Virus record (IMG/VR): IMGVR_UViG_3300013102_000006
Span: 19,869 to 83,868 of that record
From: a virus
Lineage: Duplodnaviria > Heunggongvirae > Uroviricota > Caudoviricetes
Length of the DNA stretch: 64,000 nt
Reading direction: 5' to 3' (one strand)
In this document: piece by piece, positions 18,662 through 57,514 of the stretch
Position numbering within the stretch: the first letter of the stretch is position 1
Layout of the letters: each line of letters starts with the position of its first letter
Made by a program: the position numbers and the translations under genes
The notes under the pieces: model-generated
Seen by the model: only the letters and a program-made list of their open reading frames with translations
Told to the model about the DNA's origin: nothing
Databases searched by the model: none

Positions 18662-18901
18662 CTAGGAGATTATCTCCCAGTTATCCACAAAGTAATCGAA
18701 AGGTATGGTTCTGGTGCTGAACCTATTCAATGAATCGTAACCAGATACACAAACGTATGCCTCTTTCTCTGAGTCACCGAGATTACCATAGCCAGTGATT
18801 GCCCACTCATTGGCTTTACCAATCCTCCTTACACGCCTGCCAAGTGAGATCACGCGTATCATTCGTATACCTTTTGAATATTGGCGATTTTTGTAAGCCA
18901 A
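18662..18901 (-). CDS. Hypothetical protein
   Basis: 79 aa ORF. Confidence 0.3.
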   Translation of the reverse strand: MAYKNRQYSKGIRMIRVISLGRRVRRIGKANEWAITGYGNLGDSEKEAYVCVSGYDSLNRFSTRTIPFDYFVDNWEIIS

Positions 18902-19560
18902 GCATAGTCTGCACGAGCAAAGTAATTGGTATGGTCTTTTAGAATGAAGGTACCATACTTCTGTTGGTCTGTTCGAAGCTCTGGGTCAACATCTTTATTC
19001 AATAGCATCATATGCATCTCAAGTACGCCCTTATTCTGCAGTTCTTTCTGGCGGAAGTTGCTCCTTGCGAGCATTTGGATAGAGTTACGCTCCCAGTCTC
19101 GTTGTCGCCATAGAAATACATTCTGCCATTCGTCTTCAGGTACATTAAATGCTCGAGCATCGAACATGGCAAGATTGACTTTATCATCCATAACCTTACA
19201 TGTCTGCCAAAAATCATTGAAATGCGCTGTAAACATACTTGCAGTAATAGATACGAGCTTATTTATCTCATAATCGTACCAAGCTTCTGTATCAAGCGTA
19301 TCGTAGTCAGTGAGCAGGAAGCTTGCCTCATCAGACTGAACATAAGCCAATTGGAAGCCCTGCATATGCTTAGATGTTTCTCGAGCAGCATATACCATAG
19401 CATCCATAACTGAGCTATCAAATGGCTTATCACAGTTCTTTGTGAACGTATGAAAAGCTTTACCATCTACTCGTATAACTACTGGCGTACGACGCGTTAG
19501 AAGGTGCTTAGGGACAGCCTCATAGCGTTTTACGCGGTCACCCAGTGTGTCTTTATTCAT
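18859..19560 (-). CDS. Thg1-like protein (tRNA-His guanylyltransferase family; 3'-5' nucleotidyltransferase for tRNA 5'-end repair)
   Basis: 233 aa; VVIRVDGKAFHTF matches the Thg1 motif VVVRLDGRNFHRF; AYVQSDEASFLL matches AYGQSDEYSF with the catalytic acidic residues; length fits Thg1-like proteins. Confidence 0.7.
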   Translation of the reverse strand: MNKDTLGDRVKRYEAVPKHLLTRRTPVVIRVDGKAFHTFTKNCDKPFDSSVMDAMVYAARETSKHMQGFQLAYVQSDEASFLLTDYDTLDTEAWYDYEINKLVSITASMFTAHFNDFWQTCKVMDDKVNLAMFDARAFNVPEDEWQNVFLWRQRDWERNSIQMLARSNFRQKELQNKGVLEMHMMLLNKDVDPELRTDQQKYGTFILKDHTNYFARADYAWLTKIANIQKVYE

Positions 19561-33725: not shown

Positions 33726-34172
33726 CTATCTATCAATTTCTAGAGAAAACTTTATGAAGTCTTTGTATAAATTGAATGAACTAAATGTAAGTTTCACGTT
33801 GTCATTGTCCTTATCGAGAATCTGACTTGATAACGCGGTGATTGTGTGTGGGTCGATTTCATTTACGCCCTCGTCCACAATCATATTTGCAGAGAAACCT
33901 CGTTGGTCGAGGTATGTTTCAATGTTTCTAATATGTTCTTCATTACGAGCTTCAAGAACGATAATAGTCTTATGCGGACTCGTAGCCCATAATGACTGCA
34001 TATGCTGGCTAGATTGCATACCTGCGAACATAGCAGCGTGTGAAGCTTGTGCTGCAGCTTTACCTACCGACATACCGAGTGACTTATTGAGAAATATGTA
34101 TACTACAGGATTTTCCCGTTTTTCTACAACTTCTCCTATTTCGACTGGCTTATTATCGTCGCGCTTTGCCAT
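33726..34172 (-). CDS. PTH2-family peptidyl-tRNA hydrolase-like protein
   Basis: 148 aa; VGKAAAQASHAA matches the PTH2 signature GK(x)AAQ(x)(x)HA. Confidence 0.5.
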   Translation of the reverse strand: MAKRDDNKPVEIGEVVEKRENPVVYIFLNKSLGMSVGKAAAQASHAAMFAGMQSSQHMQSLWATSPHKTIIVLEARNEEHIRNIETYLDQRGFSANMIVDEGVNEIDPHTITALSSQILDKDNDNVKLTFSSFNLYKDFIKFSLEIDR

Positions 34173-34347
34173 AATAATCTTTTCCCATTACATAAGACTC
34201 GACAGCTTTATAAATCGATTCGTTATCTTCAGATGTCGACGAAAATATTCTGTCCATAGTCTTTGACTTGTACCGAAGAATTGCAGTCACACCATACTCA
34301 TTTCGTACGATTACTACAGATTCTGGCATTTCTCTTTTAAAAATCAT
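34153..34347 (-). CDS. Hypothetical protein
   Basis: 64 aa ORF. Confidence 0.25.
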   Translation of the reverse strand: MIFKREMPESVVIVRNEYGVTAILRYKSKTMDRIFSSTSEDNESIYKAVESYVMGKDYYGKARR

Positions 34348-35239
34348 AATAAGGGTCTCCTAATTGCATTACTGGTAAGCCAAGTTCGTCTCTCCACATT
34401 CTACAGACTGATGGTCGATCATCGAATATAGCGAGTACATTGTATTTTCCCTTTATGTACTTCTCATACATTTCTCGCTTTACAACGGTATCTTTGACTT
34501 GATTTCCACTGGCATCAGTATGGTCAGAGCGGCGCATGTGTAATTCTTTATAAGCGATATCATTTCGGTCTAGCCAATCTTCAGTCTCAGGTCGGCATAT
34601 CTCATCCCTACCGCTAAATAGTATTATCTCTGCTCGTTCAGTCTCAGCGATAGCATCAATCATAAATGCTACACTTGGGTCTGCCTCGTCTTCACCAACA
34701 AACTTCCAGGCATATGCAGCTTTATCACCAAATCTCTTCCTAGTTGTCATATGCGCTAGCGTTCCATCTATATCTGAGATAACGACATACGGAAGGTTCT
34801 CGTCATATTCAGGAGCGTCTATTGGCTTTTTAACAAATTGATGATACATATCACGTATTACTCGTTCGCCAACTGACCTAGAGCGTTTCAAATCACGCCT
34901 TACGCATTCCTCGATAGGAACCTTAAGGAATGAATCATTTACTTCAAATTCAGCTCCGAACTCATCGGCCATCTTTTTGAGAGACTTCTCATGCACTGGG
35001 TTAAGATTTGTGTCATCAACTACGACGCTCTTGTTGTGTTCTAGTGCCGCGCGAATCATAGCATCTCTTGTCCACAATACTTGCTTTTCATGTTTGCGCT
35101 TATAATGTTCACCAAAGAGCATCTCTCGGATGTCATCTTTATTTACTCGGTAGTACCCACTCTCAGAAAGCGTACGAGCGTACGTACTCTTACCAGATGC
35201 TGGTAGACCCTTTGTCATAATCAGCTTTAATTTTGCCAT
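34337..35239 (-). CDS. pnk: Polynucleotide kinase-phosphatase (T4 Pnk-like: 5'-kinase plus 3'-phosphatase)
   Basis: 300 aa; N-terminal P-loop MTKGLPASGKSTYARTL (kinase); C-terminal HAD phosphatase motif VVISDIDGTLA. Confidence 0.75.
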   Translation of the reverse strand: MAKLKLIMTKGLPASGKSTYARTLSESGYYRVNKDDIREMLFGEHYKRKHEKQVLWTRDAMIRAALEHNKSVVVDDTNLNPVHEKSLKKMADEFGAEFEVNDSFLKVPIEECVRRDLKRSRSVGERVIRDMYHQFVKKPIDAPEYDENLPYVVISDIDGTLAHMTTRKRFGDKAAYAWKFVGEDEADPSVAFMIDAIAETERAEIILFSGRDEICRPETEDWLDRNDIAYKELHMRRSDHTDASGNQVKDTVVKREMYEKYIKGKYNVLAIFDDRPSVCRMWRDELGLPVMQLGDPYYDF

Positions 35240-35240
35240 T

Positions 35241-36164
35241 TTATCGTTCCGTATCAGCTACTGATAGACTGTTATTCAATATGTCGTGATATATTTGAAT
35301 AAACTTCCTATTACACAGCCCTTTTAGTTTTTTAAAGTTAAGAGCAGGTACTTTTTTAACTATTTCCCATATCTCTTCTGTAATGAGGTCGTGGTAGCAA
35401 GTGCCAGCAATTTGGCTGGTGTGCTTCATATTAAGTCGTTCTTCAGTCTGCGACTGCAGCTTTTGAATGATTTTTTCTACACGAGCGACTGTACAGTATT
35501 TGTTAACAACATACATTTCCCAGTATGTTTCTGAGTGCTTATTATTACCACCAAACACAATAGCATTTGATTCCTTGAACTTTTCATGGACAACCTTTGC
35601 ATATACGTGGTCACCAAATTTGTTCACAAAGTTCGCAGCCTTAAGTACTACACCCTCACCTGCAGGTGCAATAGCAGATTTACCTACGAATTCTTTAATC
35701 TCATCAAGCGTAAGTTTACCTTCAGCAAATACGTGAGGATATTCGAGTCCTAGAAATTCTGCTTCGGCTTTTACATCTTCCTGAGGTAGCCACCTATCAT
35801 TAGCTCTGTCGTAAATATCAAACAGATAGATTTTCTCATAGGCTGCATCTGGATATGTAATGGTGTGCTTCACAAGCCATTCGCCATAAAGAATATGGTC
35901 AGGATTTCGGCTAAAGTACATAGCGAGACTTAAGTTATTTTGAACAGCCTCTTGAAAACCTCTAAAAGATTCATCTTCAGGTAGCATTCTGGTACGAGTA
36001 CCGCAACGAATCTTACCATCAAGCTGAAATATAGAGATGTTCGCGCCATCTACTTTTTCTTGAACTATTAGTTCTTCATCTAAGATACCATCGGTCTCTT
36101 CTTTTCCGAGTCGATGTATTTTTTCGTATTTTCTGTATTCCACTTCATTTTCCCCTATATACAT
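35241..36164 (-). CDS. RNA ligase (Rnl2-like ATP-dependent nucleotidyltransferase)
   Basis: 307 aa; motif I QEKVDGANI (KxDG), motif IV GEGVVLK, motif V YAKVVHEKFK; adjacent to pnk as in T4 tRNA repair. Confidence 0.65.
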   Translation of the reverse strand: MYIGENEVEYRKYEKIHRLGKEETDGILDEELIVQEKVDGANISIFQLDGKIRCGTRTRMLPEDESFRGFQEAVQNNLSLAMYFSRNPDHILYGEWLVKHTITYPDAAYEKIYLFDIYDRANDRWLPQEDVKAEAEFLGLEYPHVFAEGKLTLDEIKEFVGKSAIAPAGEGVVLKAANFVNKFGDHVYAKVVHEKFKESNAIVFGGNNKHSETYWEMYVVNKYCTVARVEKIIQKLQSQTEERLNMKHTSQIAGTCYHDLITEEIWEIVKKVPALNFKKLKGLCNRKFIQIYHDILNNSLSVADTER

Positions 36165-36967
36165 TATCTCTTATTGAGCTTATGCTTGTCAATAGGTAGA
36201 ACCTCCCAAAATGAATCATTTTTCTTTACAATAGTAGTTTCAACTGTTGACTCGTCAGGTATGAGTATTTCACGCTGATTTTTAAGTTGCTGATTGAAAT
36301 GTTTACATACAACTGAATAATCAACCATATTAGTATAGCCATTCTGACGTAGTTCTAATCCCATAGAGATATCTGGTCCAAGAGATTGATATGTATGGAA
36401 GACGTGGTTCTTGTATATGTTCGCATCAATCAGTGCGCAGTAGAATCCTCCCGCATCGATGTTTTCTATGCCTGAATCCTTATAGGGAATAGATGTAGTA
36501 CTTGTCGGGTTATAGATATCATTGAACCTCCACCCACCGATATATGGAATTCCCCACCTACCGAGCTCGACACCCTCAGCGTATACACACCCTGGAGTAT
36601 TTCTAAATATGTTCATAAGCTTAGTAAGGGCGTTTCTAGGGACAATTGTGTCATCTTCAGTAAGGAATACGTAATCAGCTATACCCACTCTGCTCTTTGC
36701 AAAATTATGGATAGCAGTAATCCTCTTACGTCGTGCGAGCCAATCGAATCTTTTTACTGGCTTAGTCTCAGGATACTTTACAGTTAAACGTTCGTTAAAC
36801 TTTGTGTCCTGAATCATGTTTCTGACTTTAACGTACAGTTTATTATCACCGTCAACGATACATAGTAAATTAGTATATGTAGGATCGCAGTCTATAAGCT
36901 CGAGCGCTGATATTACATCAGTAAGATATTCTTCTCTCGAGACAGTTAATATTATAGTAATAGTCAT
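36164..36967 (-). CDS. Glycosyltransferase, GT-A fold (family-2-like)
   Basis: 267 aa; N-terminal Rossmann-like start (TITIILTVSRE), DxD-like FLTEDDTIV. Confidence 0.5.
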   Translation of the reverse strand: MTITIILTVSREEYLTDVISALELIDCDPTYTNLLCIVDGDNKLYVKVRNMIQDTKFNERLTVKYPETKPVKRFDWLARRKRITAIHNFAKSRVGIADYVFLTEDDTIVPRNALTKLMNIFRNTPGCVYAEGVELGRWGIPYIGGWRFNDIYNPTSTTSIPYKDSGIENIDAGGFYCALIDANIYKNHVFHTYQSLGPDISMGLELRQNGYTNMVDYSVVCKHFNQQLKNQREILIPDESTVETTIVKKNDSFWEVLPIDKHKLNKR

Positions 36968-37608
36968 AAGTTAACCTTATTAAATTGCTTTCCATCAATA
37001 ATCTCGAGTGCTGTGTAATCTCCAATTGGTGTACCATCTCGTTCTGTTGAAAACGAATCAATACACCATACATTTGGTTCAACTTCCCAGCATGTCTCAC
37101 TTGGAGTGTGACCAAATACTTGGTTAGGTAGATATTGTCTCCTTGATGAATAGTTTGGACTATTAGGGCGCGCCCATAGTGGACTTCCGTCGGTCCATAA
37201 ATCATCGCTATTGCCGCTTATCCATTCCTCTGTATATCCGGCATGCGAGTATGTTATCCCATCTTCAAAAACCGAAATAGGTAAATTTCGCACCCACTCC
37301 TTAAGACTCTTATTCTCTGGCGTATTCAGTAATGCTTGAGTCATGCCATTATAGCCACTTGATAGAACATCTAGGCTATTTACATAGCTATAGTCATGAT
37401 TACCCGTTAAGAATATAAACTTCTCTTTATTAGAATTATGCATGTTCTTTATTCTTTTCCAGGCATTCACACTCTCAATAGGACTTGAGTCCCAATCATC
37501 TGAATAATCGCCAATGAATATAACCTTGTCGTATCTACTTGCTAATTCTTCTACTTTATCAAGTATCCACATCTTAGTGTGAATGTCACCTATGGCAAGT
37601 ATTTTCAT
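36964..37608 (-). CDS. Calcineurin-like metallophosphoesterase
   Basis: 214 aa; MKILAIGDIHTK (GDxH), GDYSDDWD (GDxxDRG-like), GNHD motifs. Confidence 0.65.
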   Translation of the reverse strand: MKILAIGDIHTKMWILDKVEELASRYDKVIFIGDYSDDWDSSPIESVNAWKRIKNMHNSNKEKFIFLTGNHDYSYVNSLDVLSSGYNGMTQALLNTPENKSLKEWVRNLPISVFEDGITYSHAGYTEEWISGNSDDLWTDGSPLWARPNSPNYSSRRQYLPNQVFGHTPSETCWEVEPNVWCIDSFSTERDGTPIGDYTALEIIDGKQFNKVNL

Positions 37609-41413: not shown

Positions 41414-42853
41414 TTATAGCTCTATATCGTTAATTTTTTTGATAAGAGCTTTCTTATCAGTTTCGACCATCTTCATAATGTCGAAAGTCTTTTCTGACCA
41501 GCCAGCTAGAGTCGCAACTCTAGATTCAGGGAAGGCTAATTGCCCATATCCATTAATATCCCATGAGTAAATGAATGGATTTGCATCGTACTTCTTCTTG
41601 TATCGCTCTAAGTCAGCACCTGGATGATAGTACTCAGTCCATGTTTGCATGTCTGAGATGATTACAATTCGGTCATACGCCTTATCAGCTTCTTTGAATA
41701 CCGCATTAATATTTGTACCATGCCCAACGTATCCCTTGCCACCTGTCCAACTTTGGTTAAGGCTGTCTAGCCACTTCATAAGTGTAAGTGTAGAGTCATT
41801 CTTGTTGAATGAAAGATATTCAGCATCGTCACCGAAGTGCATAAGGTCAGCACCAGAGCTTCGTGCAAGAGCTAGGCCAAACATCGCTGCCTTACCAAAT
41901 GCAGACTTTGTGCCACTACCCATTGAACCTGAGTGGTCAATCACAACAAGTGTCTTTCCATCGAACCTAGGAACGTTTGAGAATGATATATCAAGAGCAT
42001 CCGATAAACCAGATAGCACCTTAGAACTTCTCGAGTTATTTTGTAGCTCGTCGTAAGCTGTAAGGAATCGGAATGGCAGCAGAAGTGACTTCTTAATTCG
42101 TGATTCTGTTGTAAGCAATTTAATCGCTGCATCTACTACTTCATCGTCTGTTTCTTCAATAATGTTTCGAAGGTTTCTGACAAGTGCCATGTAACCTATC
42201 TTTCCAGACTTAACAAGCTCACCCCATGCCTCAGCCTTACTGCTGCTATCACCAGATTGGCCAGCTTGCGAAATCTTTGCTTCAAATGTATCGGTATTAC
42301 GTAGCTCGTCTCTAACAAGCTTACCTAACTGCTCGGTGTGCTGTGGGTGCATAAGGTTAACGACGTCTACAAGCTTAACAGACTTACCCGATGCACGATA
42401 TTTAGCCAACTGATAAGCATCGAAGCGTGTAAGCGCTTTTGCGAATCCTTTACGCATTGCGTGACTTTGCTTACCGCCATTTTCCTTAACATATGAAAGA
42501 ATTTCAAGCATGTCGTCAGGTCGGTATGCGATGGAATCAAAGTACTCTTTTAGCCATTCTTCGCCTCTAACATTCATGGCAATCCATCCAGCAACAACGT
42601 GTGACACTGAACGCATACCGAATTCTGTTCGTGCGAATATTGATGCCTTAGCGGCGAATTGTGGATCTACCTTTGCTACAAGCTCTTCTATGCGCGTTTG
42701 GCGCTTTGCACCAGATTCATAGAACCTATCTTCAAGGAATGAAGTTAATAGCGCTGAGACTAATTCTAGTTCAGGCGTCATAGTAAATGCCTCGCCACCA
42801 GCAAGGTTAATTGTCTTGTTTTTTGTTGTCACTGATTTGTTGAATTTACTCAT
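41414..42853 (-). CDS. rsr: Ro60-like (TROVE domain) protein with C-terminal von Willebrand A domain (Rsr ortholog)
   Basis: 479 aa; N-terminus TKNKTINLAGGEAFTMTPELELVSALLTSFLEDRFYESG follows the Ro60/Rsr pattern N-x-(A/D)GG-x-A(F/W)...L..FL.(L/F)G(S/A)EGG(T)(Y/F)Y; C-terminal vWA MIDAS motif LVVIDHSGSMGSG. Confidence 0.6.
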   Translation of the reverse strand: MSKFNKSVTTKNKTINLAGGEAFTMTPELELVSALLTSFLEDRFYESGAKRQTRIEELVAKVDPQFAAKASIFARTEFGMRSVSHVVAGWIAMNVRGEEWLKEYFDSIAYRPDDMLEILSYVKENGGKQSHAMRKGFAKALTRFDAYQLAKYRASGKSVKLVDVVNLMHPQHTEQLGKLVRDELRNTDTFEAKISQAGQSGDSSSKAEAWGELVKSGKIGYMALVRNLRNIIEETDDEVVDAAIKLLTTESRIKKSLLLPFRFLTAYDELQNNSRSSKVLSGLSDALDISFSNVPRFDGKTLVVIDHSGSMGSGTKSAFGKAAMFGLALARSSGADLMHFGDDAEYLSFNKNDSTLTLMKWLDSLNQSWTGGKGYVGHGTNINAVFKEADKAYDRIVIISDMQTWTEYYHPGADLERYKKKYDANPFIYSWDINGYGQLAFPESRVATLAGWSEKTFDIMKMVETDKKALIKKINDIEL

Positions 42854-44838: not shown

Positions 44839-45072
44839 TCAAGACACGGTCTTCTTCTTTTTAGCTTTCATCTTCTTTTCGTCAAAAGTTCTTTGACTGG
44901 TAAGTTGGAGCCCATGCTTAGTTGAAAACTTCGATTTACACTTTGGGCATCGTTCGTGATGAACACCTCGAGTAAACTTAAACCATTCCTCATGAATGTC
45001 ACAATAACCGACAAGAGCATTTCTCTCTTCTGGTGTAGTGCTGTCCATCTCGTCAGTTGTAGGTACTGTCAT
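44839..45072 (-). CDS. Hypothetical zinc-ribbon protein
   Basis: 77 aa; CDIHEEW...CPKCKSKF. Confidence 0.3.
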   Translation of the reverse strand: MTVPTTDEMDSTTPEERNALVGYCDIHEEWFKFTRGVHHERCPKCKSKFSTKHGLQLTSQRTFDEKKMKAKKKKTVS

Positions 45073-46022
45073 TATTTTAGCAAATGTTTAGTTCTATCAT
45101 TTGAGAATTTAAGACGCTCGCAGATACCAATCAATAATTCCTTACGGACTACTTCATGTTTAGGATACTTCAACTGTCCCTTAGACTCAGTCTCAGTAAA
45201 TGGATAACCGATGTTATTGAATAATTTATTCCATCTATCGTCGAGCGTATCTCCGTCGCTGATACCGAATTCGAAATCTCCCTCTACCCATGCATCTTGC
45301 CATGCAAGCCATACTTCAGGAATCATGTACTTCATGACATCTGTGTTAACAAGAATTGCTATACCAGATAATGGGCTTTTACCCATAAGAAGCTTATCAA
45401 GTTCGGCAATCCATCGCTCCTTACTTACTCGAGTAATTTCACTTGCGTGCTGTCTCATTACTCCAATAAAGTTGGGGTCTACTTCAAAACCAAGTTGTGA
45501 TGCAAATCTTGCCGCACGTAGCATACGAAGAGGGTCTTCGATAATACGGTCTTTACCCATTCCTACTGCTTTAATCTTCTTAGCAAGAATATCTAAGCGG
45601 CCCCCATGTGGATCAAAGTATTCATCATCTTTCAGAACAATAGAATTTATAGTGAAGTCGCGTCGTGATAGATCAAGCATAAGGTCATCAGTGAAGTCTA
45701 CTTCTGGTTTTCTTGATTTACCATCGTACTTATCTGTTCGGTACGTGGTTACCTCGACATAGACATATTCTACATTACCAGAATCATCTAGAATAGGTAG
45801 CTTGAATCCTATCGTTCCAAATCTCTTACCGATTGAGTATGCTTTTCTGCCAGCATCTTGAATATTCTTCTCGATTTCATCGGGAGTTAGAGACGTACAG
45901 TAGTCCCAGTCTTTTGGTTCGCGCCCAAGAATAATGTCCCTTACTGAGCCACCTACAAGGTTAACTGGAGCATCACCAAAGATGTTCTTTATTTCGGTCT
46001 GTAGCTTTTTAGCTTTTTCCAT
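45072..46022 (-). CDS. tRNA nucleotidyltransferase (CCA-adding enzyme / poly(A) polymerase head domain)
   Basis: 316 aa; NLVGGSVRDIILGREPKDWDY is the GG(S/A)VRD...D.D signature of class-II CCA/poly(A) nucleotidyltransferases; no C-terminal HD domain. Confidence 0.7.
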   Translation of the reverse strand: MEKAKKLQTEIKNIFGDAPVNLVGGSVRDIILGREPKDWDYCTSLTPDEIEKNIQDAGRKAYSIGKRFGTIGFKLPILDDSGNVEYVYVEVTTYRTDKYDGKSRKPEVDFTDDLMLDLSRRDFTINSIVLKDDEYFDPHGGRLDILAKKIKAVGMGKDRIIEDPLRMLRAARFASQLGFEVDPNFIGVMRQHASEITRVSKERWIAELDKLLMGKSPLSGIAILVNTDVMKYMIPEVWLAWQDAWVEGDFEFGISDGDTLDDRWNKLFNNIGYPFTETESKGQLKYPKHEVVRKELLIGICERLKFSNDRTKHLLK

Positions 46023-46331: not shown

Positions 46332-47266
46332 CGCTTCCCCTTAATATTTCTTACGTATCGTCCCTTAATCTTTTCTCCGTACCCACCGTCGTTCCTGAGA
46401 GCGAGCAGTCTATCAATAAGAGCAAGATCTGATTCTTTAATATCTAATTGCTCTGATTTAGATCGAGCAGGTGGCTTTCCAGCCTCGAACCATGTCCAGC
46501 CACCGTCGATATGATCTCTCAATATCCTAGTGAAGTTGTCAGGCTCCTCATCTGAATTGTATACTCTCATCCATGCAATCACTTTTACTGGTGTTTCGCG
46601 CTTTCGAAGTTTATTTTCATAACGTCTTCGATACCAGCCATCACTTTCCTCGGTGTATTCTTCCATCGTGTCCCAAACTTCACCGAGGCATACATCTTTT
46701 TGAGTTAATGTTGAGTAAACGCCGCCTATTTCCCATTTAGAAGTCTTTTTTGCTTTCTTCATGTCAGCCTTTAGCTTCATGTCCGCGACTGCTTCTTTGT
46801 AAGCGTCCATTCCTTCATGGATAAATCCTGGCTGTCCAGCTTTCCTAACAAACATAACCTTTTCTTTGATTATGCCTTTGGATATATTGCTGTTCCTGAT
46901 TAAATCTACGAGAAGTGCATCATTGACGCCTATGACAAATTTAATTCCGTCCTTCTCAACTTCACATGCTAGAAATGATAAGCGACCGCCTTGAGATGAT
47001 CCATCTGCAGACTCAAGAATACGTACAGTGAAACCGCCGTTGTCGAATGTGTGAACTTCTGGTTCATAGGTTTTCGTGTATTCACGCTTTTCACGATCCC
47101 ATTCACTCTCGCGCGCCCAATCTTTCGCTTGTGTAAGTGCTCTCTTGTCGCCATGTTCGACTACGTAGCCATCAAAGATGCGACCATAAGGCTTATTGTC
47201 AACTGGAGAAGTCTTAACAGCGACATCGATTTTATCCATCATCTTCCAGCTGTGATAGGTCTTCAT
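46328..47266 (-). CDS. Hypothetical protein
   Basis: 312 aa ORF co-transcribed with two nucleotidyltransferases; no motif recognised. Confidence 0.35.
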   Translation of the reverse strand: MKTYHSWKMMDKIDVAVKTSPVDNKPYGRIFDGYVVEHGDKRALTQAKDWARESEWDREKREYTKTYEPEVHTFDNGGFTVRILESADGSSQGGRLSFLACEVEKDGIKFVIGVNDALLVDLIRNSNISKGIIKEKVMFVRKAGQPGFIHEGMDAYKEAVADMKLKADMKKAKKTSKWEIGGVYSTLTQKDVCLGEVWDTMEEYTEESDGWYRRRYENKLRKRETPVKVIAWMRVYNSDEEPDNFTRILRDHIDGGWTWFEAGKPPARSKSEQLDIKESDLALIDRLLALRNDGGYGEKIKGRYVRNIKGKR

Positions 47267-47931
47267 TAGTTTCCCCTCCTGATCTTTAGAAGGATCTTAT
47301 TAATCGCTTCTTTGTCTGGTTCATCTGGGAGAACACTGTTAATTGCTTTCATCTCTGCATCTAATTCGGTAAACCTATCTATTATTTGCTGTGGCGATAG
47401 CTCTCCGAATGCAAATATCTCTTTACGCTGTTCTGGGGTGACACGAACGGTTATATCTCCTGTCTCAAGCAGCTCTTTACCCTGAATCATAAGACGTAGC
47501 AGGTGTCTCGAGTGTTTTGCATATCGTTTATTTTTACCATTGCCATATTTTCCATCCTTAGCATTTAATTTCTTCGCTTGGCTCATGGCATATCCGCCAT
47601 ATGACAAGGAAGCCTTTTTACTAAGAAATATATGCCTATTATCGACAAGCATCTTTCCATGCTTGGTAAGCTCTAGATACCCGTCTAAGAAAAGCATCTC
47701 TAGAATAGTAGGGTTACACTTCATGGCAAGCTTCATGAATTTCTCTACTTCATGATAGCACCAGTCTGGGTCTTTATTGTCATATGTTTCTTTATGCTTT
47801 TCTAGGCTCAAGACATCAGTAGTTTTTGCGACAAATATACCTTTTATATCTGTATCCGAGTCAGCATGGTCAAGACCATATGCCTTTGACCCAGTTATTC
47901 CCTCAAGAATTATATTGTCTGGTTTTTTCAC
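47266..47931 (-). CDS. Pol-beta-superfamily (minimal) nucleotidyltransferase
   Basis: 221 aa; GITGSKAYGLDHADSDTDIKGIF matches the GS-x9-13-D-x-D nucleotidyltransferase motif. Confidence 0.55.
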   Translation of the reverse strand: MKKPDNIILEGITGSKAYGLDHADSDTDIKGIFVAKTTDVLSLEKHKETYDNKDPDWCYHEVEKFMKLAMKCNPTILEMLFLDGYLELTKHGKMLVDNRHIFLSKKASLSYGGYAMSQAKKLNAKDGKYGNGKNKRYAKHSRHLLRLMIQGKELLETGDITVRVTPEQRKEIFAFGELSPQQIIDRFTELDAEMKAINSVLPDEPDKEAINKILLKIRRGN

Positions 47932-53424: not shown

Positions 53425-53510
53425 TGGCGGAAGACTGTGGACTCGAACCACATGCCTTTCAGCACACACATCTTAGCAGGATGGTCTAGCACCTCGCTAG
53501 TTAGTCTTCC
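53425..53510 (-). tRNA. tRNA-Ser(GCU), type II, CCA encoded (hand fold)
   Basis: Plus-strand TGG+acceptor+GGACTCGAACC T-arm; 86 nt; anticodon loop CUGCUAA. Confidence 0.55.
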
Positions 53511-53513
53511 AAA

Positions 53514-53588
53514 TGGTTCGGGTGCTAGGGTTCGAACCTAGATTATATGGGTCAAAGCCATACGTCCTACCAATTAGACGACTCCCGA
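53514..53588 (-). tRNA. tRNA-Gln(UUG) (hand fold)
   Basis: CTAGG-GTTCGAA-CCTAG T-arm; anticodon loop CUUUGAC; one A:A mismatch in the acceptor stem. Confidence 0.55.
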
Positions 53589-53612
53589 CTATATGCTCAT
53601 TTATGAACAAAG

Positions 53613-53683
53613 CTCCAGTAACAGGGCTCAAACCTGTGATACTTGGTTAACAGCCAAGCGTATTATCACTATACTATACTGGA
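53613..53683 (-). tRNA. tRNA-Asn(GUU); 3' CCA not encoded
   Basis: Acceptor TCCAGTA/TACTGGA, D stem GTAT/ATAC, anticodon loop CUGUUAA, T-arm ACAGG-TTTGAGC-CCTGT; the 3' sequence after the discriminator is C-T-T, not CCA. Confidence 0.5.
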
Positions 53684-53698
53684 GCACTACTCATAAAA

Positions 53699-53773
53699 TG
53701 GTCCCGACAGCGATATTCGAAATCGCCCTAACACCGTGACAGGGTATCGTGCTAGCCACTACACTATGCCGGG
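53699..53773 (-). tRNA. tRNA-Asp(GUC)
   Basis: GCGAT-ATTCGAA-ATCGC T-arm, anticodon loop CUGUCAC, CCA encoded. Confidence 0.6.
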
Positions 53774-53875
53774 ATGATTGTTAATGTATTTTCTTGGGGT
53801 GACCGACGAGACTCGCGCTCGCTTTCTCTTCCTTCACAGGGAAGTGTCTCGACTACTTCGACCTCGGCCTCCACA

Positions 53876-53964
53876 TGGAGGAGAGTGAGGGATTCGAACC
53901 CTCGGTGGATTTTACCCACTTCGGTTTTCAAGACCGACCGATTAAACCACTCTCGCAACTCTCC
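53876..53964 (-). tRNA. tRNA-Ser(UGA), type II
   Basis: 89 nt, acceptor GGAGAGT/ACTCTCC, anticodon loop CUUGAAA, long variable arm. Confidence 0.55.
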
Positions 53965-53980
53965 ATCTTTGTAATGTGCT

Positions 53981-54069
53981 TGGTCGTCCTAGATGGACTC
54001 GAACCATCACGAGATTCTATTCCCAATAGATTTTAAGTCTATCGCGGCTACCTATTACGCCATAGGACG
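53981..54069 (-). tRNA. tRNA-Leu(UAA), type II
   Basis: 89 nt, acceptor CGTCCTA/TAGGACG, anticodon loop CUUAAAA. Confidence 0.55.
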
Positions 54070-54077
54070 TTATTACT

Positions 54078-54165
54078 TGGTACAGGAGGCGGGACTCGAA
54101 CCCGCACGCCCCTTAGGGCAACAGCTTCTAAAGCTGCCGAGACTACCAAATTCCTCCACTCCTGC
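54078..54165 (-). tRNA. tRNA-Leu(UAG), type II
   Basis: 88 nt, GCGGG-ACTCGAA-CCCGC T-arm, anticodon loop UUUAGAA. Confidence 0.55.
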
Positions 54166-54176
54166 AAATTTTTAAA

Positions 54177-54254
54177 TGGTACCCACCGAAGGATTCGAAC
54201 CTTCATTCACCACATTTTGAGTGTGGCCGATATGCCAAATTCTCGTAGGCGGGC
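54177..54254 (-). tRNA. tRNA with apparent CAA anticodon but a short (5-nt) variable region, atypical
   Basis: 78 nt; GAAGG-ATTCGAA-CCTTC T-arm; anticodon stem CCACA/TGTGG with loop CUCAAAA; a Leu anticodon on a type-I-length body; needs tRNAscan confirmation. Confidence 0.4.
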
Positions 54255-54267
54255 ATATATTAATGCT

Positions 54268-54343
54268 TTGGAGCTCCGTGGCAGAATCGAACTGCCGTAA
54301 TCCGCTTTGCACGCGGGCGCGTAAGCCTCTCCGCCAACGGAGC
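54268..54343 (-). tRNA. tRNA-Cys(GCA)
   Basis: Acceptor GCTCCGT/ACGGAGC, GGCAG-AATCGAA-CTGCC T-arm, anticodon loop GUGCAAA. Confidence 0.55.
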
Positions 54344-54356
54344 ATGTTATCAATCA

Positions 54357-54442
54357 TGGTACCAGTTGAGGGAATCGCACCCACTCGGCCCGAAGGACTT
54401 GTTTTACAGACAAGCTCGTCTACTTTATCGAACTAAACCGGC
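54357..54442 (-). tRNA. tRNA-Tyr(GUA), type II (tentative)
   Basis: 86 nt; acceptor with two G:U pairs; anticodon stem-loop CTTGT-CUGUAAA-ACAAG; T-stem has one mismatch. Confidence 0.45.
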
Positions 54443-54446
54443 TTTA

Positions 54447-54521
54447 TGGTGGCACCCCTCAGACTCGAACTGAGAACCCCAACGGCTTCAACGTTGTGCT
54501 CTACCATTGAGCTAGAGTGCC
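54447..54521 (-). tRNA. tRNA-Phe(GAA)
   Basis: CTCAG-ACTCGAA-CTGAG T-arm, anticodon loop UUGAAGC. Confidence 0.6.
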
Positions 54522-54671
54522 AGAGCAAGGGTTCGCGACGAATAATCATTTATATCCCTTAATCTATTCCGTCTTACGCCAGTTTCTAGGCGAATATTCT
54601 TACCTACAAAACAGCTACGTTGCCGCTAGTTTCTATTATAAACAAAAATTATGTTAATGTACAGTATTATT

Positions 54672-54749
54672 TGGTCGGGGCTGAGAGAATCGAACTCTCC
54701 TGAATGTCTCGGCTCCAGACCGAGCGGCACGCCTTGCGCCCGAACCCCG
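54672..54749 (-). tRNA. tRNA-Pro(UGG)? with unusual C33
   Basis: GAGAG-AATCGAA-CTCTC T-arm; anticodon stem CTCGG/CCGAG with loop UCUGGAG (position 33 = C); 3-bp D stem and 8-nt variable region. Confidence 0.4.
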
Positions 54750-54779
54750 ATACTTAATATGTAATGTGAACCGATAGTT

Positions 54780-54853
54780 TGGCAGGGCGACCAGGACTTG
54801 AACCTAGAACGACGGTTTTGGAGACCGATATGATACCGTTTCACCATCACCCT
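54780..54853 (-). tRNA. tRNA-Trp(CCA)
   Basis: CCAGG-ACTTGAA-CCTAG T-arm, anticodon loop CUCCAAA. Confidence 0.5.
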
Positions 54854-55300
54854 GTATTGGTGGAGATAGCGGGCACCGCCCCCGCGTCCAAACTTACAAT
54901 GTAAGCTGTCAAAATCATAATGTTATCCCCACATGGAGTTAGTTTTTGTACAGAACCTTCCTAAACTGGCGCTAGCCGCTCGCTACCCATCACGGTTTAT
55001 TAGAGTCTGGTAGGGTCACTTACAGCCCTACTGTCCACCTACGCGGGTGGTGCTATCTACCGTGCCAAAGCCTCGTCCGCTAGCATCTTTTGTTAAAGAA
55101 AATGCACCTAAGATGTTATCTTGGTGCTTTGAGAATGTGTCTATAAAACTATGTTTATGAATTATACTCGTTAGCACCAACTGAAAAATAATCGGGTGTT
55201 AATGACCAGTGATTACAATTGAGCTGTTGCTGAGAAGTATTTGCCTTCATATATTAATTATACCACACTACGCATGGATATATCAATACTATTTTGCAGT

Positions 55301-55334
55301 AAAAAGAAAAAATCCCAATTAAGGGACTTTTTCC
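55301..55334. terminator. Weak bidirectional terminator-like hairpin
   Basis: TCCC-aattaa-GGGA hairpin flanked by AAAAAGAAAAAA and CTTTTTCC. Confidence 0.3.
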
Positions 55335-55547
55335 TCAACCCACTTCGATTATCTCAATCTAGAGAGGGAGATAATCTATAATTAGTATATATAATACTTA
55401 TGCTATGGTCAATACTTTTAGCAACCTGTATTTTGCTTTCACTCTATCTTTAGAGTTTCCTGTGCGTTTATGCGGCTTACACAATCCACATGATCGATTC
55501 GCCTTATAGTTAAGCTTTCTCTTGTAATTACTCATTGTCAATATATT

Positions 55548-55624
55548 TGGTCGTCCTGGACGGATTCGAACCGACGAATACTGCCGTGAAAGGGCAGCGC
55601 CTTAAGCCACTTGGCGACAGGACG
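55548..55624 (-). tRNA. tRNA-Glu(UUC)
   Basis: Acceptor CGTCCTG/CAGGACG, GGATTCGAACC T-arm, anticodon loop CUUUCAC. Confidence 0.55.
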
Positions 55625-55628
55625 ATAT

Positions 55629-55705
55629 TGGTGGGCTTGGAAGGTCTCGAACCTTCGACACCCTGCTTAAGAGGCAGGTGCTCTAACCAACTGAGCTACA
55701 AACCC
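55629..55705 (-). tRNA. tRNA-Lys(CUU)
   Basis: GAAGG-TCTCGAA-CCTTC T-arm, anticodon loop CUCUUAA. Confidence 0.55.
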
Positions 55706-55713
55706 TTGATTTG

Positions 55714-55743
55714 TTGACAATCTGCATTTATAATATATACATA
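55714..55743 (+). promoter_or_regulatory. Putative SigA-type promoter (plus strand) for the small gene inside the tRNA cluster
   Basis: tgTTGACAa at 55712-20 (same extended -35 as the minus-strand family), A/T-rich -10 region (TATAAT/TACATA, spacing ambiguous), then the strong RBS AGGGGGA before the ATG at 55763. Confidence 0.4.
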
Positions 55744-55762
55744 AGCACCATAGGGGGATAAT

Positions 55763-56008
55763 ATGGATAAAGACGCGGTTACACGTCACTATTTTGAAGT
55801 ACGTGGATGTAAGATTAAACGTACCTATACTAAACGTAAAGAAGCAAAAGAAGCTGCTAGAACCATGAATCGTATAAATGATTCTGGAAGAGTGCGAGTT
55901 TACTCATGCGAATTCTGTGGTCATTACCATATTGGCCATATGCGTATACCTTATGAAGATCGTAAAGAAAATGAACGGATTGCTAATATTTTAAAGAACG
56001 CTACTTAG
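55763..56008 (+). CDS. Small zinc-finger protein encoded antisense-embedded in the tRNA cluster
   Basis: 81 aa; strong RBS; CEFCGHYHIGH zinc-binding motif; basic (KRTYTKRKEAKEAAR). Confidence 0.5.
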   Translation: MDKDAVTRHYFEVRGCKIKRTYTKRKEAKEAARTMNRINDSGRVRVYSCEFCGHYHIGHMRIPYEDRKENERIANILKNAT

Positions 56009-56010
56009 TT

Positions 56011-56087
56011 TGGTGGAGCATGTCGGATTCGAACCGACGACTTTCAACTTGCAAAGCTGACACTCTGACCAACTGAGTTAATGCCCC
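56011..56087 (-). tRNA. tRNA-Ala(UGC)
   Basis: GTCGG-ATTCGAA-CCGAC T-arm, D-arm ACTC-AGTTGGTCA-GAGT, anticodon loop UUUGCAA. Confidence 0.6.
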
Positions 56088-56095
56088 ATATTTAT

Positions 56096-56172
56096 TGGTA
56101 CGCCCATTAGGATTCGAACCTAAATCCATCAAGTTAGAAGCCTGATACTCTATCCAATTGAGCTATAGACGC
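56096..56172 (-). tRNA. tRNA-Arg(UCU)
   Basis: TTAGG-ATTCGAA-CCTAA T-arm, anticodon loop CUUCUAA. Confidence 0.55.
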
Positions 56173-56184
56173 ATAGTCTTATTT

Positions 56185-56261
56185 TGGTCACACATCAGAG
56201 ATTCGAACTCTGACCCTTTGCTTGGAAGGCAAACATGCTAGCCATTAAACACCAATGTGTG
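56185..56261 (-). tRNA. tRNA-Gly(UCC)
   Basis: Perfect acceptor CACACAT/ATGTGTG, CAGAG-ATTCGAA-CTCTG T-arm, anticodon loop CUUCCAA. Confidence 0.6.
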
Positions 56262-56363
56262 ATGGACGGTTTATGATTAAATCCTCATATTGCCGACAAA
56301 AAGGTGTGGTGAAGCGTGGAACTAAGCTCTACGCCCTATTTCAACCCGCATATAGCTAGGGTT

Positions 56364-56440
56364 TGGAGCCGCGTTTCGGATTCGAACCGAAGACCTGCTG
56401 TTTACAAAACAGCTGCTCTAACCAGCTGAGCTAACGCGGC
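56364..56440 (-). tRNA. tRNA-Thr(UGU)
   Basis: Perfect acceptor GCCGCGT/ACGCGGC, canonical D-arm GCTC-AGCTGGTTA-GAGC, anticodon loop UUUGUAA. Confidence 0.65.
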
Positions 56441-56454
56441 GTAAATTTATATAC

Positions 56455-56531
56455 TGGTACACCCTGTAGGACTCGAACCTACAAACCTTTACGTTCGAAG
56501 CGTAACGCTCTATCCAATTGAGCTAAGGGTG
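56455..56531 (-). tRNA. tRNA-Arg(UCG) (tentative)
   Basis: GTAGG-ACTCGAA-CCTAC T-arm, anticodon loop CUUCGAA; the 5' end overlaps the 3' end of the HNH ORF by about 22 nt. Confidence 0.5.
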
Positions 56532-56935
56532 CGTCTATTCTTAGTTCGTAATCTGTGACAGTTTGAACAAACTATATCGCATTTTTGAATCTCTTCAACC
56601 ACCTTATCAAAAGAATAAGAACCCTGATTGAACTGTGAAAGGTTCATAAGTTTCTTTTCCCCTGGGACATGATCAAAATCTATACAGACTGCATCATAAT
56701 ATATACCGCAGTCATGACACGGATTCTCTTCCTTTATCTGTGAAAGCATAGCATGTATAATACTGTCATAATCATGAGCCTTATCTATATAATATTTTCT
56801 ATTATTTTGATAATGATTATTGCTATACATCTTTTGACATGCATTACAGTAAGATTGTCTCCTACCTTTGCGTTTATTTCTCCAGTTGAAGTCTTCGAAG
56901 CTTTTCTCTATATTGCATTTTGTACATGTCTTCAT
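56510..56935 (-). CDS. HNH homing endonuclease inserted between tRNA genes
   Basis: The ORF track gives 56510..57052, but its first 39 codons overlap the tRNA at 56980-57066, so the likely start is Met40 (MKTCTKCN..., nt 56935). Zinc-finger N-terminus (CTKCN...CNAC) and HNH core DFDHVPGEKK...CSNCHRLRT. Confidence 0.55.
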   Translation of the reverse strand: MKTCTKCNIEKSFEDFNWRNKRKGRRQSYCNACQKMYSNNHYQNNRKYYIDKAHDYDSIIHAMLSQIKEENPCHDCGIYYDAVCIDFDHVPGEKKLMNLSQFNQGSYSFDKVVEEIQKCDIVCSNCHRLRTKNRRTLSSIG

Positions 56936-56979
56936 CTTACGATTATAGCACACAAAGTACTTCGAAGTTTTAAAGAGCT

Positions 56980-57066
56980 TGGTTGCACGGGTAGGATTCG
57001 AACCTACGTACCTTTTGGGGAAAGAGCTTATGAGACTCCCGAGAATGACCACTTCTCAACCGCGCA
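56980..57066 (-). tRNA. tRNA, 87 nt with a long variable arm and apparent CAU anticodon (atypical; Met/Ile2-like anticodon on a type-II body)
   Basis: GTAGG-ATTCGAA-CCTAC T-arm, acceptor TGCGCGG/CCGTGCA, 3-bp D stem, anticodon loop CUCAUAA, 15-nt variable region. Confidence 0.4.
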
Positions 57067-57158
57067 TTACCTGATAAATGCTCTACTCACAGACTTGGGA
57101 AGCCAACTCCTATTATCGTCACTGTGAAGCACACTGATAGATTATAGAACATTTAATT

Positions 57159-57235
57159 TGGTCGACGATGAGGGGCTCGAACCCCCGACCCTCTCGGTGT
57201 AAACGAGATGCTCTAGCCAACTGAGCTAATCGTCG
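57159..57235 (-). tRNA. tRNA-Val(UAC)
   Basis: Perfect acceptor CGACGAT/ATCGTCG, canonical D-arm GCTC-AGTTGGCTA-GAGC, anticodon loop UUUACAC. Confidence 0.6.
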
Positions 57236-57261
57236 ATATTTGGGTGTATTGTTGCTACTAA

Positions 57262-57340
57262 CGCAGCTAGTGGGATTTGAACCCACGGTCTGAGAGGTTA
57301 TGCCTCCCTGTTTTACTTTTAAACTATAGCACGTCACAAT
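57262..57340 (-). pseudogene. Degenerate tRNA-like element (canonical T-arm; no convincing acceptor or anticodon arm; no CCA)
   Basis: GTGGG-ATTTGAA-CCCAC T-arm, but the upstream sequence gives only a 5-nt 'anticodon' loop (GGAGG-CAUAA-CCUCU) and the acceptor strands do not pair. Confidence 0.3.
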
Positions 57341-57399
57341 ACACTTTTCTGGTATACCTTACTTGTAGACAAATCACGATTATATTTATCTACAAACTC

Positions 57400-57475: not shown

Positions 57476-57514
57476 ATATATTTATTATAATCAAAGCATT
57501 AGCCCTTTGTCAAT

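What the first reader, a model, noticed from the sequence alone, without database searches (positions are those of the whole stretch)
18859..19560. Thg1-like 3'-5' nucleotidyltransferase in a phage, with no recognisable tRNA-His in the 26-tRNA cluster
The 233-aa protein carries the two Thg1 signatures (VVIRVDGKAFHTF and AYVQSDEASF with the catalytic SDE). Thg1-like proteins add G-1 to tRNA-His or repair truncated tRNA 5' ends by reverse (3'-5') polymerisation. They are rare in viruses. The hand-folded tRNA cluster contains no GUG-anticodon tRNA, so the enzyme may act on host tRNA-His or serve general 5'-end repair. Together with Pnkp, Rnl2, CCA-adding enzyme and PTH2 this gives the phage machinery for both tRNA ends.
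Basis: partly seen in the sequence, partly recalled or inferred. Interest (0 to 1): 0.7.

Follow-up and report, generated by a model that had tools for sequence, protein, structure and literature searches.

The report
Phage Thg1-like tRNA repair enzyme

Summary
The 233-aa ORF at 18859-19560(-) belongs to the Thg1 family (Pfam PF04446 E=1e-32; PHROG 4717 E=4e-81). It is the bacterial Thg1-like (TLP) type: Bacillus thuringiensis TLP 4KGK scores E=1e-46, eukaryotic Thg1 at best 5e-13, and the catalytic residues are invariant. All named partner genes exist (Pnkp, RNA ligase, CCA-adding enzyme, PTH2), plus RlaP, two phosphoesterases and a Ro60/TROVE protein.

The claim of no tRNA-His is wrong. A non-canonical tRNA-His(GUG) lies at 53795-53872(-). 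It has an encoded G-1 opposite C73, an encoded CCA, an A2xA71 mismatch and a T-loop without U55. ARAGORN misses it and Rfam scores it 33.8 bits. It sits in the syntenic tRNA-His slot of related phages, and diverged copies show compensatory changes in six pairs.

Thg1-like genes occur in 164 GenBank phage records, and published comparative genomics already places them in phage RNA-repair toolkits. This is a new member of a known kind.

One curiosity: all 8 G-1/C73-type tRNA-His genes in this clade carry one acceptor-stem irregularity, against about 4% of the other tRNAs. A link to the enzyme is unproven.

The parts
18859..19560 (-). Thg1-like protein (TLP), 233 aa, 3'-5' nucleotidyltransferase; catalytic D32, S76-D77-E78
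   Evidence: ORF; Pfam PF04446 E=1.1e-32; PHROG 4717 E=4.1e-81; PDB 4KGK BtTLP E=1e-46; catalytic residues invariant in 13 orthologs
53795..53872 (-). Non-canonical tRNA-His(GUG): encoded G-1 (53872), C73 (53798), CCA, A2xA71 mismatch, T-loop CGCGAGU (G55 in place of U55)
   Evidence: Rfam RF00005 33.8 bits; same slot as canonical tRNA-His in relatives; four diverged copies give 95% paired cells and 6 compensatory pairs
53425..57674 (-). tRNA array: 24 ARAGORN tRNAs plus tRNA-His plus a type-II tRNA-Ser(GCU) at 53425-53510. All 20 amino acids are covered only if the His gene is counted
33726..34172 (-). Peptidyl-tRNA hydrolase PTH2
   Evidence: Pfam PF01981 E=1.8e-16
34337..35239 (-). Polynucleotide kinase-phosphatase (Pnkp)
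   Evidence: Pfam HAD_PNKP E=3e-33 plus a P-loop kinase domain
35241..36164 (-). RNA ligase (PF09414, Rnl2-like nucleotidyltransferase domain)
   Evidence: Pfam E=1.9e-25; weak NCBIfam Rnl2 hit
36964..37608 (-). Calcineurin-like metallophosphoesterase
   Evidence: Pfam PF00149 E=6.6e-12
41414..42853 (-). Ro60/TROVE plus vWA RNA-binding protein
   Evidence: Pfam TROVE E=1.1e-22
45072..46022 (-). CCA-adding-type tRNA nucleotidyltransferase
   Evidence: Pfam PolyA_pol and its RNA-binding domain; NCBIfam CCA tRNA nucleotidyltransferase E=7e-63, below the equivalog cut-off
47266..47931 (-). RlaP, RNA-repair-pathway Pol-beta-family nucleotidyltransferase
   Evidence: Pfam PF10127 E=1.3e-24

Best explanation
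ORF 18859-19560(-) encodes an active bacterial-type Thg1-like protein (TLP), a reverse (3'-to-5') RNA polymerase. By analogy with BtTLP and MaTLP, it would activate a tRNA 5'-phosphate with ATP or GTP and then add nucleotides that pair with the 3' strand of the acceptor stem. In this phage it is one tool of a conserved tRNA-maintenance kit: 26 tRNAs, a CCA-adding enzyme, RlaP, Pnkp, an RNA ligase, phosphoesterases, PTH2 and Ro60. Its most likely job is tRNA 5'-end quality control. That means rebuilding 5'-truncated phage or host tRNAs and, by C73-templated addition, restoring G-1 on tRNA-His, including the phage's own non-canonical tRNA-His. Shown here: family membership, intact and conserved catalytic residues, TLP-type rather than eukaryotic-type sequence, the repair module, and the tRNA-His with G-1:C73. 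Inferred: the enzymatic activity, the substrates and the biological trigger (host nuclease damage or mis-processing).
For: Family and subtype: Pfam E=1.1e-32; BtTLP 4KGK E=1e-46 versus eukaryotic Thg1 at 5e-13 to 5e-10; the segment aligned to the eukaryotic HINNLYN motif reads ERNSIQM, like BtTLP's SKNSISM. Catalytic D32, S76, D77, E78, R30 and H37 are invariant in 13 orthologs sharing 40-80% identity. BtTLP prefers 5'-truncated tRNAs 5-160-fold, is not restricted to tRNA-His, and adds G-1 opposite C73 about 50-fold better than opposite A73 (PMC3061083; PMC3701042). MaTLP has both an anticodon-independent repair mode and a His-anticodon G-1 mode (PMC4820378). The window's tRNA-His has C73, the templating base. 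The RNA-repair module is present in the window and conserved in related phages. The nearest GenBank homolog, in Mycobacterium phage Bombitas, lies three genes from a polynucleotide kinase. The gene also occurs in a phage with no detectable tRNA-His (Variovorax phage V45v66), which argues for a role broader than maturing a phage tRNA-His. Published comparative genomics reached the same reading (PMC7824862).
Against: No activity, substrate or expression data exist for any phage TLP in the literature I could search. The TLP gene lies about 15 kb from the Pnkp/ligase block and about 34 kb from the tRNA array, so there is no operon-level link in the window. Neighbourhoods in three other phage lineages are uninformative. 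No host nuclease that truncates tRNA 5' ends is identified here. G-1 is already encoded in this phage's tRNA-His, so G-1 addition would be a back-up and not a requirement.
Confidence: 0.62

Rival explanations
1. Dedicated tRNA-His maturation enzyme. The TLP exists chiefly to put G-1 on tRNA-His (the phage's own or the host's), so that HisRS can charge it during infection.
For: All five phages of this clade inferred to carry the TLP, where I could see the His slot, encode a tRNA-His with C73, the template for G-1. BtTLP adds G-1 opposite C73 as efficiently as yeast Thg1 does. The TLP-positive Bacillus phage PHZU0001 encodes a tRNA-His with no G at -1 and would need post-transcriptional G-1. Most GenBank annotations use this name.
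Against: G is already encoded at -1 in 8 of 8 G-1/C73-type genes, versus 2 of 138 other tRNAs, so RNase P can supply G-1 as in bacteria. The PHZU0001 tRNA-His has A73, a poor template for BtTLP-type enzymes. T4-like phages, which do not appear among the TLP hits, also lack an encoded G-1. The Variovorax phage has the TLP but no tRNA-His. The eukaryote-type HINNLYN motif is absent.
Confidence: 0.17
2. tRNA 5'-editing, as in amoebozoan mitochondria. The mismatched 5' nucleotides of the phage tRNA-His would be removed and re-synthesised by the TLP against the invariant 3' strand (...UCAC-C), turning A2 into U2 in this phage.
For: Every G-1/C73-type tRNA-His in the clade has one acceptor-stem irregularity (A2xA71 in 4 genes, U1xC72 in 2, a bulged C after position 3, and A5xG68), opposite a 3' strand invariant at positions 69-73. 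Only about 6 of 138 other tRNAs have any mismatch (Fisher p about 1e-6 on 5 designs). By comparison with the perfectly paired T4-like tRNA-His, which has the same 3' strand, the deviating base is on the 5' strand. TLPs carry out exactly this repair in Dictyostelium mitochondria (PMC5041481, abstract listed; my own knowledge for the details).
Against: The irregularities are conserved within lineages (A2 in four copies that differ by about 20% elsewhere). That suggests the mismatch itself is selected and is not erased. Two of them (the bulge after position 3, and 5:68) lie beyond the first three positions handled by known editing. The conserved encoded G-1 would be pointless if the 5' end were removed. 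No nuclease for the removal step is identified. No other tRNA in the array needs editing.
Confidence: 0.1
3. The protein acts on something other than tRNA 5' ends (for example tmRNA, a Y-like RNA, or another RNA or DNA end), or it is a drifting passenger gene without a role.
For: The window encodes other structured RNAs (a tmRNA-like gene; a Y-RNA-like element near a Ro60 gene). One Dictyostelium TLP has non-tRNA substrates (my own knowledge).
Against: Catalytic and N-terminal motifs are invariant across 40-80% identical orthologs. The gene sits on many phage-sized contigs of 83-100 kb, so it is under purifying selection. All biochemically studied bacterial and archaeal TLPs act on tRNAs.
Confidence: 0.06

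Closest known systems
Bacillus thuringiensis Thg1-like protein BtTLP (PDB 4KGK/4KGM)
   Same: Alignable over residues 4-209 at E=1e-46. It has the same catalytic D/SDE residues and the same non-eukaryotic version of the segment that aligns to HINNLYN. The expected chemistry is the same: ATP/GTP activation of the 5' end followed by Watson-Crick templated 3'-5' addition.
   Different: The window's protein is phage-encoded and set in a virus with its own tRNA array and RNA-repair genes. Its C-terminal 25 residues are not aligned. Its activity is untested.
Phage 'tRNA-His guanylyltransferase' family (PHROG 4717), e.g. Mycobacterium phage Bombitas gp113, the Bacillus Bastille-like phages, and jumbo phages surveyed by Iyer et al. 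2021
   Same: Same protein family (PHROG E=4e-81; up to 57.6% identity). It shows the same sporadic association with Pnkp, RNA ligase, CCA-adding enzyme and PTH2.
   Different: The window's phage has no close DNA relative in GenBank phages. It belongs to an uncultured clade of roughly 84-100 kb, known only from metagenome contigs.
Eukaryotic Thg1 (human 3OTB, Candida 3WBZ)
   Same: Same fold family and the same catalytic carboxylates.
   Different: Much weaker similarity (E=5e-13 to 5e-10). The HINNLYN motif is absent. Eukaryotic Thg1 adds a non-templated G-1 opposite A73 through anticodon recognition, whereas the phage tRNA-His has C73.
Mitochondrial tRNA 5'-editing by TLPs in Dictyostelium and Acanthamoeba
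   Same: A TLP co-occurs with tRNA genes that carry mismatches at the 5' end of the acceptor stem.
   Different: Here only tRNA-His is affected, with one irregularity per gene, and not always within positions 1-3. The irregularities are conserved rather than drifting. Editing has not been demonstrated.
Phage T4 Pnkp/Rnl tRNA repair pathway
   Same: A phage-encoded kit that heals tRNAs broken by host nucleases. Pnkp and an RNA ligase are adjacent in the window.
   Different: T4 repairs anticodon-loop breaks and has no TLP. Here the kit is extended to both acceptor-stem ends (TLP for the 5' end, CCA-adding enzyme for the 3' end), plus RlaP, PTH2 and Ro60.

Membership tests
Thg1/TLP superfamily (Pfam PF04446) | Profile match above the curated cut-off over the whole catalytic domain | tested here: met
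   113.1 bits vs 29.2, profile positions 2-130 of 130
Thg1/TLP superfamily (Pfam PF04446) | Metal-binding carboxylates equivalent to human Thg1 D29 and D76, plus E77 | tested here: met
   D32, D77 and E78 align to these residues (numbering) and are invariant in 13 orthologs
Thg1/TLP superfamily (Pfam PF04446) | 3'-5' nucleotidyl transfer activity | not testable with these tools
   Requires a biochemical assay
Bacterial/archaeal Thg1-like proteins (repair-type TLP) | Closer in sequence to characterised TLPs than to eukaryotic Thg1 | tested here: met
   BtTLP E=1e-46; Candida and human Thg1 5e-13 and 5e-10
Bacterial/archaeal Thg1-like proteins (repair-type TLP) | Kinetic preference for templated addition to 5'-truncated tRNAs | not testable with these tools
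   Known for BtTLP and MaTLP only
Eukaryotic-type Thg1 (non-templated G-1 adder) | HINNLYN motif (its status as a signature of the eukaryotic enzymes is my own knowledge) | tested here: not met
   The aligned segment is ERNSIQM, where Candida Thg1 has HINNLYN
Bacterial-type tRNA-His | GUG anticodon in a 7-nt loop on a 5-bp stem | tested here: met
   Loop CUGUGAA is invariant in four copies; four of five stem pairs covary
Bacterial-type tRNA-His | Genome-encoded G-1 opposite C73 | tested here: met
   G at 53872 and C at 53798. G is at -1 in 8 of 8 such genes versus 2 of 138 other tRNAs
Bacterial-type tRNA-His | Canonical cloverleaf with a U54-U55-C56 T-loop and a fully paired acceptor stem | tested here: not met
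   The cloverleaf helices are supported, but the T-loop is CGCGAGU (G55) and A2xA71 is unpaired in all four copies. ARAGORN does not call it
Mitochondrial-type tRNA 5'-editing system | tRNA genes with mismatches in acceptor pairs 1-3 that are corrected in the mature RNA | tested here: inconclusive
   Mismatches exist only in tRNA-His, at positions 1 and 2, as a bulge after position 3, or at position 5.
Phage RNA-repair module | Pnkp with an RNA ligase, plus end-restoring nucleotidyltransferases and PTH2 | tested here: met
   Pnkp and ligase are adjacent; CCA-adding enzyme, RlaP and PTH2 are present. The same set occurs in relatives

The most novel reading that the evidence does not exclude
In this uncultured phage clade the tRNA-His genes form a distinct non-canonical family: G55 T-loop, an encoded G-1:C73, an invariant 3' acceptor strand, and one conserved irregularity in the acceptor stem that in most designs is attributable to the 5' strand. 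This tRNA-His could be a dedicated client of the phage TLP, either as a substrate for templated 5'-end correction or as a tRNA whose weakened stem makes RNase P processing error-prone and TLP repair necessary. That would be the first tRNA 5'-editing or repair circuit tied to a specific tRNA in a virus or in any bacterial system.
Probability: 0.12. Interest if true: 0.7.

Novelty: new member of a known kind. Interest (0 to 1): 0.3.

Why it matters
As submitted, the finding is ordinary. Thg1-like genes are a catalogued, sporadic component of phage RNA-repair toolkits, and the supposed paradox of an enzyme without its tRNA comes from limited tRNA detection. Two points have some value. First, standard tRNA finders missed 6 of the 10 tRNA-His genes I found in this clade, so tRNA-gene counts and 'missing amino acid' statements for phages can be wrong. 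Second, the physiological role of bacterial-type TLPs is still open. This clade pairs a conserved TLP with tRNA-His genes that always carry an acceptor-stem defect, which gives a concrete, testable substrate hypothesis.

Tried and rejected
1. Exact-pattern scans for the odd tRNA-His (anticodon arm, T-arm) and for the conserved tRNA-Ser(GCU) 3' end found nothing in IMG/VR or JGI metagenomes, or only chance hits in GC-rich coding DNA.
2. A regex search for PTH2 (DAG.T) found nothing. Pfam later located PTH2.
3. Gene neighbourhoods of the TLP in Bacillus, Aeromonas and Vibrio phages were mostly hypothetical proteins and uninformative.
4. BLAST with E. coli tRNA-His to locate tRNA-His in TLP-positive GenBank phages returned mainly T4-like phages. 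I used these only as controls.
5. I first inferred that L031's phage lacks the TLP because no listed hit had its contig length. I withdrew this after one search showed that the listed lengths describe only cluster representatives.
6. The MAFFT alignment of all seven G-1/C73-type genes (A2) misregistered the 5' strands, so I used a covariance model instead.
7. That model found nothing in distant phage genomes under default filters, not even canonical tRNAs, so it says nothing about them.
8. NCBIfam has no model matching the TLP.
9. The single-sequence fold of the tRNA-His was no better than shuffles (z=0.02), so the case rests on comparative evidence.
10. I did not run structure prediction, because the match to a solved TLP is already strong.

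Full report
OBSERVATION. Both quoted motifs are present, at residues 27-39 and 75-81. The ORF matches Pfam Thg1 (PF04446) at E=1.1e-32, 113 bits against a curated cut-off of 29.2, across the whole profile. It matches PHROG 4717, 'tRNA-His guanylyltransferase', at E=4.1e-81 over nearly its full length. The window is part of an 84,780-bp metagenome contig (ENA ERZ27252506), and a near-identical copy exists in an SRA assembly.

WHICH KIND OF THG1. Among solved structures, the best match by far is the Bacillus thuringiensis Thg1-like protein 4KGK/4KGM (E=1e-46, residues 4-209). Candida and human Thg1 score 5e-13 and 5e-10. D32 aligns to human D29, and S76-D77-E78 align to S75-D76-E77. R30, H37 and K45 also align to their counterparts. 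Where Candida Thg1 has HINNLYN, this protein has ERNSIQM and BtTLP has SKNSISM. In 13 orthologs sharing 40-80% identity, D32, S76, D77, E78, R30, H37 and an N-terminal GDR.K.YE motif are invariant. This is an intact, selected, bacterial-type TLP. It is not a eukaryote-type G-1 adder.

THE MISSING tRNA-His IS NOT MISSING. ARAGORN reports 24 tRNAs and no His. The Rfam tRNA model finds two further elements in the array. The one at 53798-53871(-) scores 33.8 bits (gathering score 29) and has anticodon loop CUGUGAA, i.e. GUG. Read with its flanks, it is G(-1)-GAGGCCG...CGGUCAC-C73-CCA. That is the bacterial tRNA-His layout, with an encoded G-1 opposite C73 and an encoded CCA like its neighbours, plus an A2xA71 mismatch and a T-loop CGCGAGU that lacks U54-U55. 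A third missed gene at 53425-53510(-) is a type-II tRNA-Ser(GCU). Its near-identical homolog in a related contig is called tRNA-Ser(gct) by ARAGORN. With these two genes the array holds 26 tRNAs and covers all 20 amino acids. Without the His gene, histidine alone would be missing.

IS THE ODD tRNA-His REAL? I reached related phages through a conserved exonuclease gene beside the array. In L031, L033, L036 and L040, ARAGORN calls a tRNA-His(GUG) directly downstream of tRNA-Ser(UGA), the slot occupied by the window's element. Copies of the window-type gene occur in L035 (96% identical), L037 (81%) and L038, and ARAGORN missed all of them. On these four sequences the cloverleaf has 95.2% of cells paired, against 37-50% when the partners are slid. 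Six pairs change on both sides: D-stem 11:24, four of the five anticodon-stem pairs, and T-stem 52:62. The only unpaired position is A2xA71, in all four sequences. G-1, C73, CCA and the anticodon loop are invariant. A covariance model built from them found another copy in L032 at 70 bits. Rfam found a further non-canonical tRNA-His in L041. The gene is real.

CONTEXT. So do RlaP (47266-47931), a metallophosphoesterase, a dual-specificity phosphatase and a Ro60/TROVE protein. The same module recurs in the relatives. The TLP itself lies about 15 kb from the Pnkp-ligase block, among small early-type ORFs.

WHAT IS KNOWN. Homologs occur in 164 of 50,697 GenBank phage records, in Bacillus, Prevotella (Lak), Caulobacter, Mycobacterium, Aeromonas and Vibrio phages among others. 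Many are annotated as tRNA-His guanylyltransferase, and the best identity is 57.6%. Iyer et al. 2021 describe Thg1 as a sporadic 5'-end-restoring member of jumbo-phage RNA-repair systems, alongside the CCA-adding enzyme, PTH2, ligases, PNK and TROVE (PMC7824862). In the temperate Mycobacterium phage Bombitas the gene lies three genes from a polynucleotide kinase. I found no biochemical study of a phage TLP. For BtTLP, Rao et al. showed three things: templated G-1 addition opposite C73 about 50-fold better than opposite A73, a 5-160-fold preference for 5'-truncated tRNAs, and activity on tRNAs other than His (PMC3061083). Kimura et al. showed that an archaeal TLP has two modes: an anticodon-independent repair mode that reads the acceptor stem and the elbow, and a His-anticodon mode for G-1 addition (PMC4820378).

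DOES THE tRNA-His DESIGN POINT TO THE ENZYME? This link is an inference, not a direct observation. With the window that makes five TLP-positive phages, and all five have a G-1/C73 tRNA-His. Each of the eight G-1/C73-type genes carries exactly one acceptor-stem irregularity: A2xA71 (four genes), U1xC72 (two), a bulged C after position 3 (one), and A5xG68 (one). These lie opposite a 3' strand that is invariant at positions 69-73. Among 138 other tRNAs in the same arrays, only about six have any mismatch, and at most one (probably an ARAGORN misregistration) has one in pairs 1-3. Fisher p is about 1e-6 counting five designs. G at -1 occurs in 8 of 8 of these genes, against 2 of 138. This pattern is real and specific to His, but its link to the TLP is weak, for five reasons. 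The mismatches are conserved within lineages. Two lie beyond positions 1-3. Two relatives of unknown TLP status (L031, L036) have a different tRNA-His with C1:G72, A73 and A at -1. An unrelated TLP-positive Bacillus phage has a perfectly paired tRNA-His with A73 and no G-1, and a TLP-positive Variovorax phage has no tRNA-His by ARAGORN genome-wide or by Rfam within its main tRNA cluster. Finally, T4-like phages, which are not among the TLP hits, have a perfectly paired tRNA-His with the same 3' strand and C73 but U at -1.

VERDICT. The enzyme is a bona fide bacterial-type TLP in a phage RNA-repair setting, which makes it a new member of a known kind. The most likely function is template-dependent tRNA 5'-end quality control, with C73-templated G-1 restoration on tRNA-His as one task (confidence about 0.6). 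A dedicated G-1 maturation role (about 0.17) and a mitochondria-like 5'-editing role for the irregular tRNA-His (about 0.1) remain possible. The premise that made the finding look paradoxical is refuted.

Noticed in passing
window 41414-42853(-) and 57236-57375(-): A Ro60/TROVE-vWA protein is encoded in the repair module. Inside the tRNA array there is a tRNA-like element (Rfam tRNA 39.5 bits, model positions 4-67 only, odd anticodon loop GCAUAAC, no CCA). Its distal flanks form a 9-bp closing stem (GUGUAUUGU/ACAAUACAC), and its fold z-score is -2.9. It may be a Y-RNA-like (YrlA-type) partner of Ro60. No blastn homolog was found in the related loci.
   Followed up: partly
window 54856-55260(-): A tmRNA-like gene lies next to tRNA-Trp, ending ...GGACGCGGGGGCGGUGCCCGCUAUCUCCACCA with a non-canonical T-loop. 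ARAGORN does not call it, and it gets only sub-threshold Rfam hits to permuted/alpha tmRNA models (29.5 and 25.1 bits). Homologous stretches exist in L040, L041, L036 and L031. L031 and L033 also have a standard tmRNA called by Rfam elsewhere.
   Followed up: partly
window 53425-53510(-): A type-II tRNA-Ser(GCU) with an extra nucleotide before the D-stem. ARAGORN and the Rfam tRNA model both miss it (33.1 bits to the tRNA-Sec model). A near-identical gene in L032 is called tRNA-Ser(gct).
   Followed up: yes
window 56980-57066(-); L031 18449-18533(-): An 85-87-nt tRNA with a CAU anticodon and a long variable arm, a type-II architecture that is unusual for Met/Ile2. It is conserved in at least one relative.
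   Followed up: no
L031 13050-13124(-); L036 9000-9074(-); PX023499.1 143006-143079: A second design of phage tRNA-His: C1:G72, discriminator A73, and A or C at -1, so no encoded G-1 and no C73. It is unclear how such a tRNA is charged by a bacterial HisRS. The Bacillus phage carrying it has a Thg1-like gene; the TLP status of L031 and L036 is unknown.
   Followed up: partly
L050-L053 (phages RB18, PEi20, PsgM02F, Proteus ABTNLPp2): T4-like phage tRNA-His genes have C73 and a perfect 7-bp stem (GUGGCCG/CGGUCAC) but U at -1, so G-1 is not encoded there either. Their 3' strand is identical to that of the window's tRNA-His.
   Followed up: partly
L035 about 10455-10600(-): Directly upstream of tRNA-His there is a tRNA-like gene (GGACACG...CGUGGCC-G-CCA, with an A3xG70 mismatch). 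It has a roughly 70-nt insertion between the anticodon arm and the T-arm, which could be an intron or an expanded variable region.
   Followed up: no
window 6356-9466(-): A 1036-aa protein whose precomputed Pfam hits are Phage_portal plus a weak 2',5' RNA ligase (PF13563) hit. That would be an unusual fusion if real.
   Followed up: no
window about 56540-56930(-): A protein-coding ORF sits inside the tRNA array, between tRNA-Arg(UCG) and the CAU tRNA. It is Cys-rich with an HNH-like motif by eye, so it is probably a homing endonuclease. I did not run it against profiles.
   Followed up: no
window 19560-19856(-): A 98-aa ORF whose stop overlaps the TLP start codon (ATGA). It has no Pfam hit. 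The equivalent interval in the near-identical contig L006 has no called gene.
   Followed up: no
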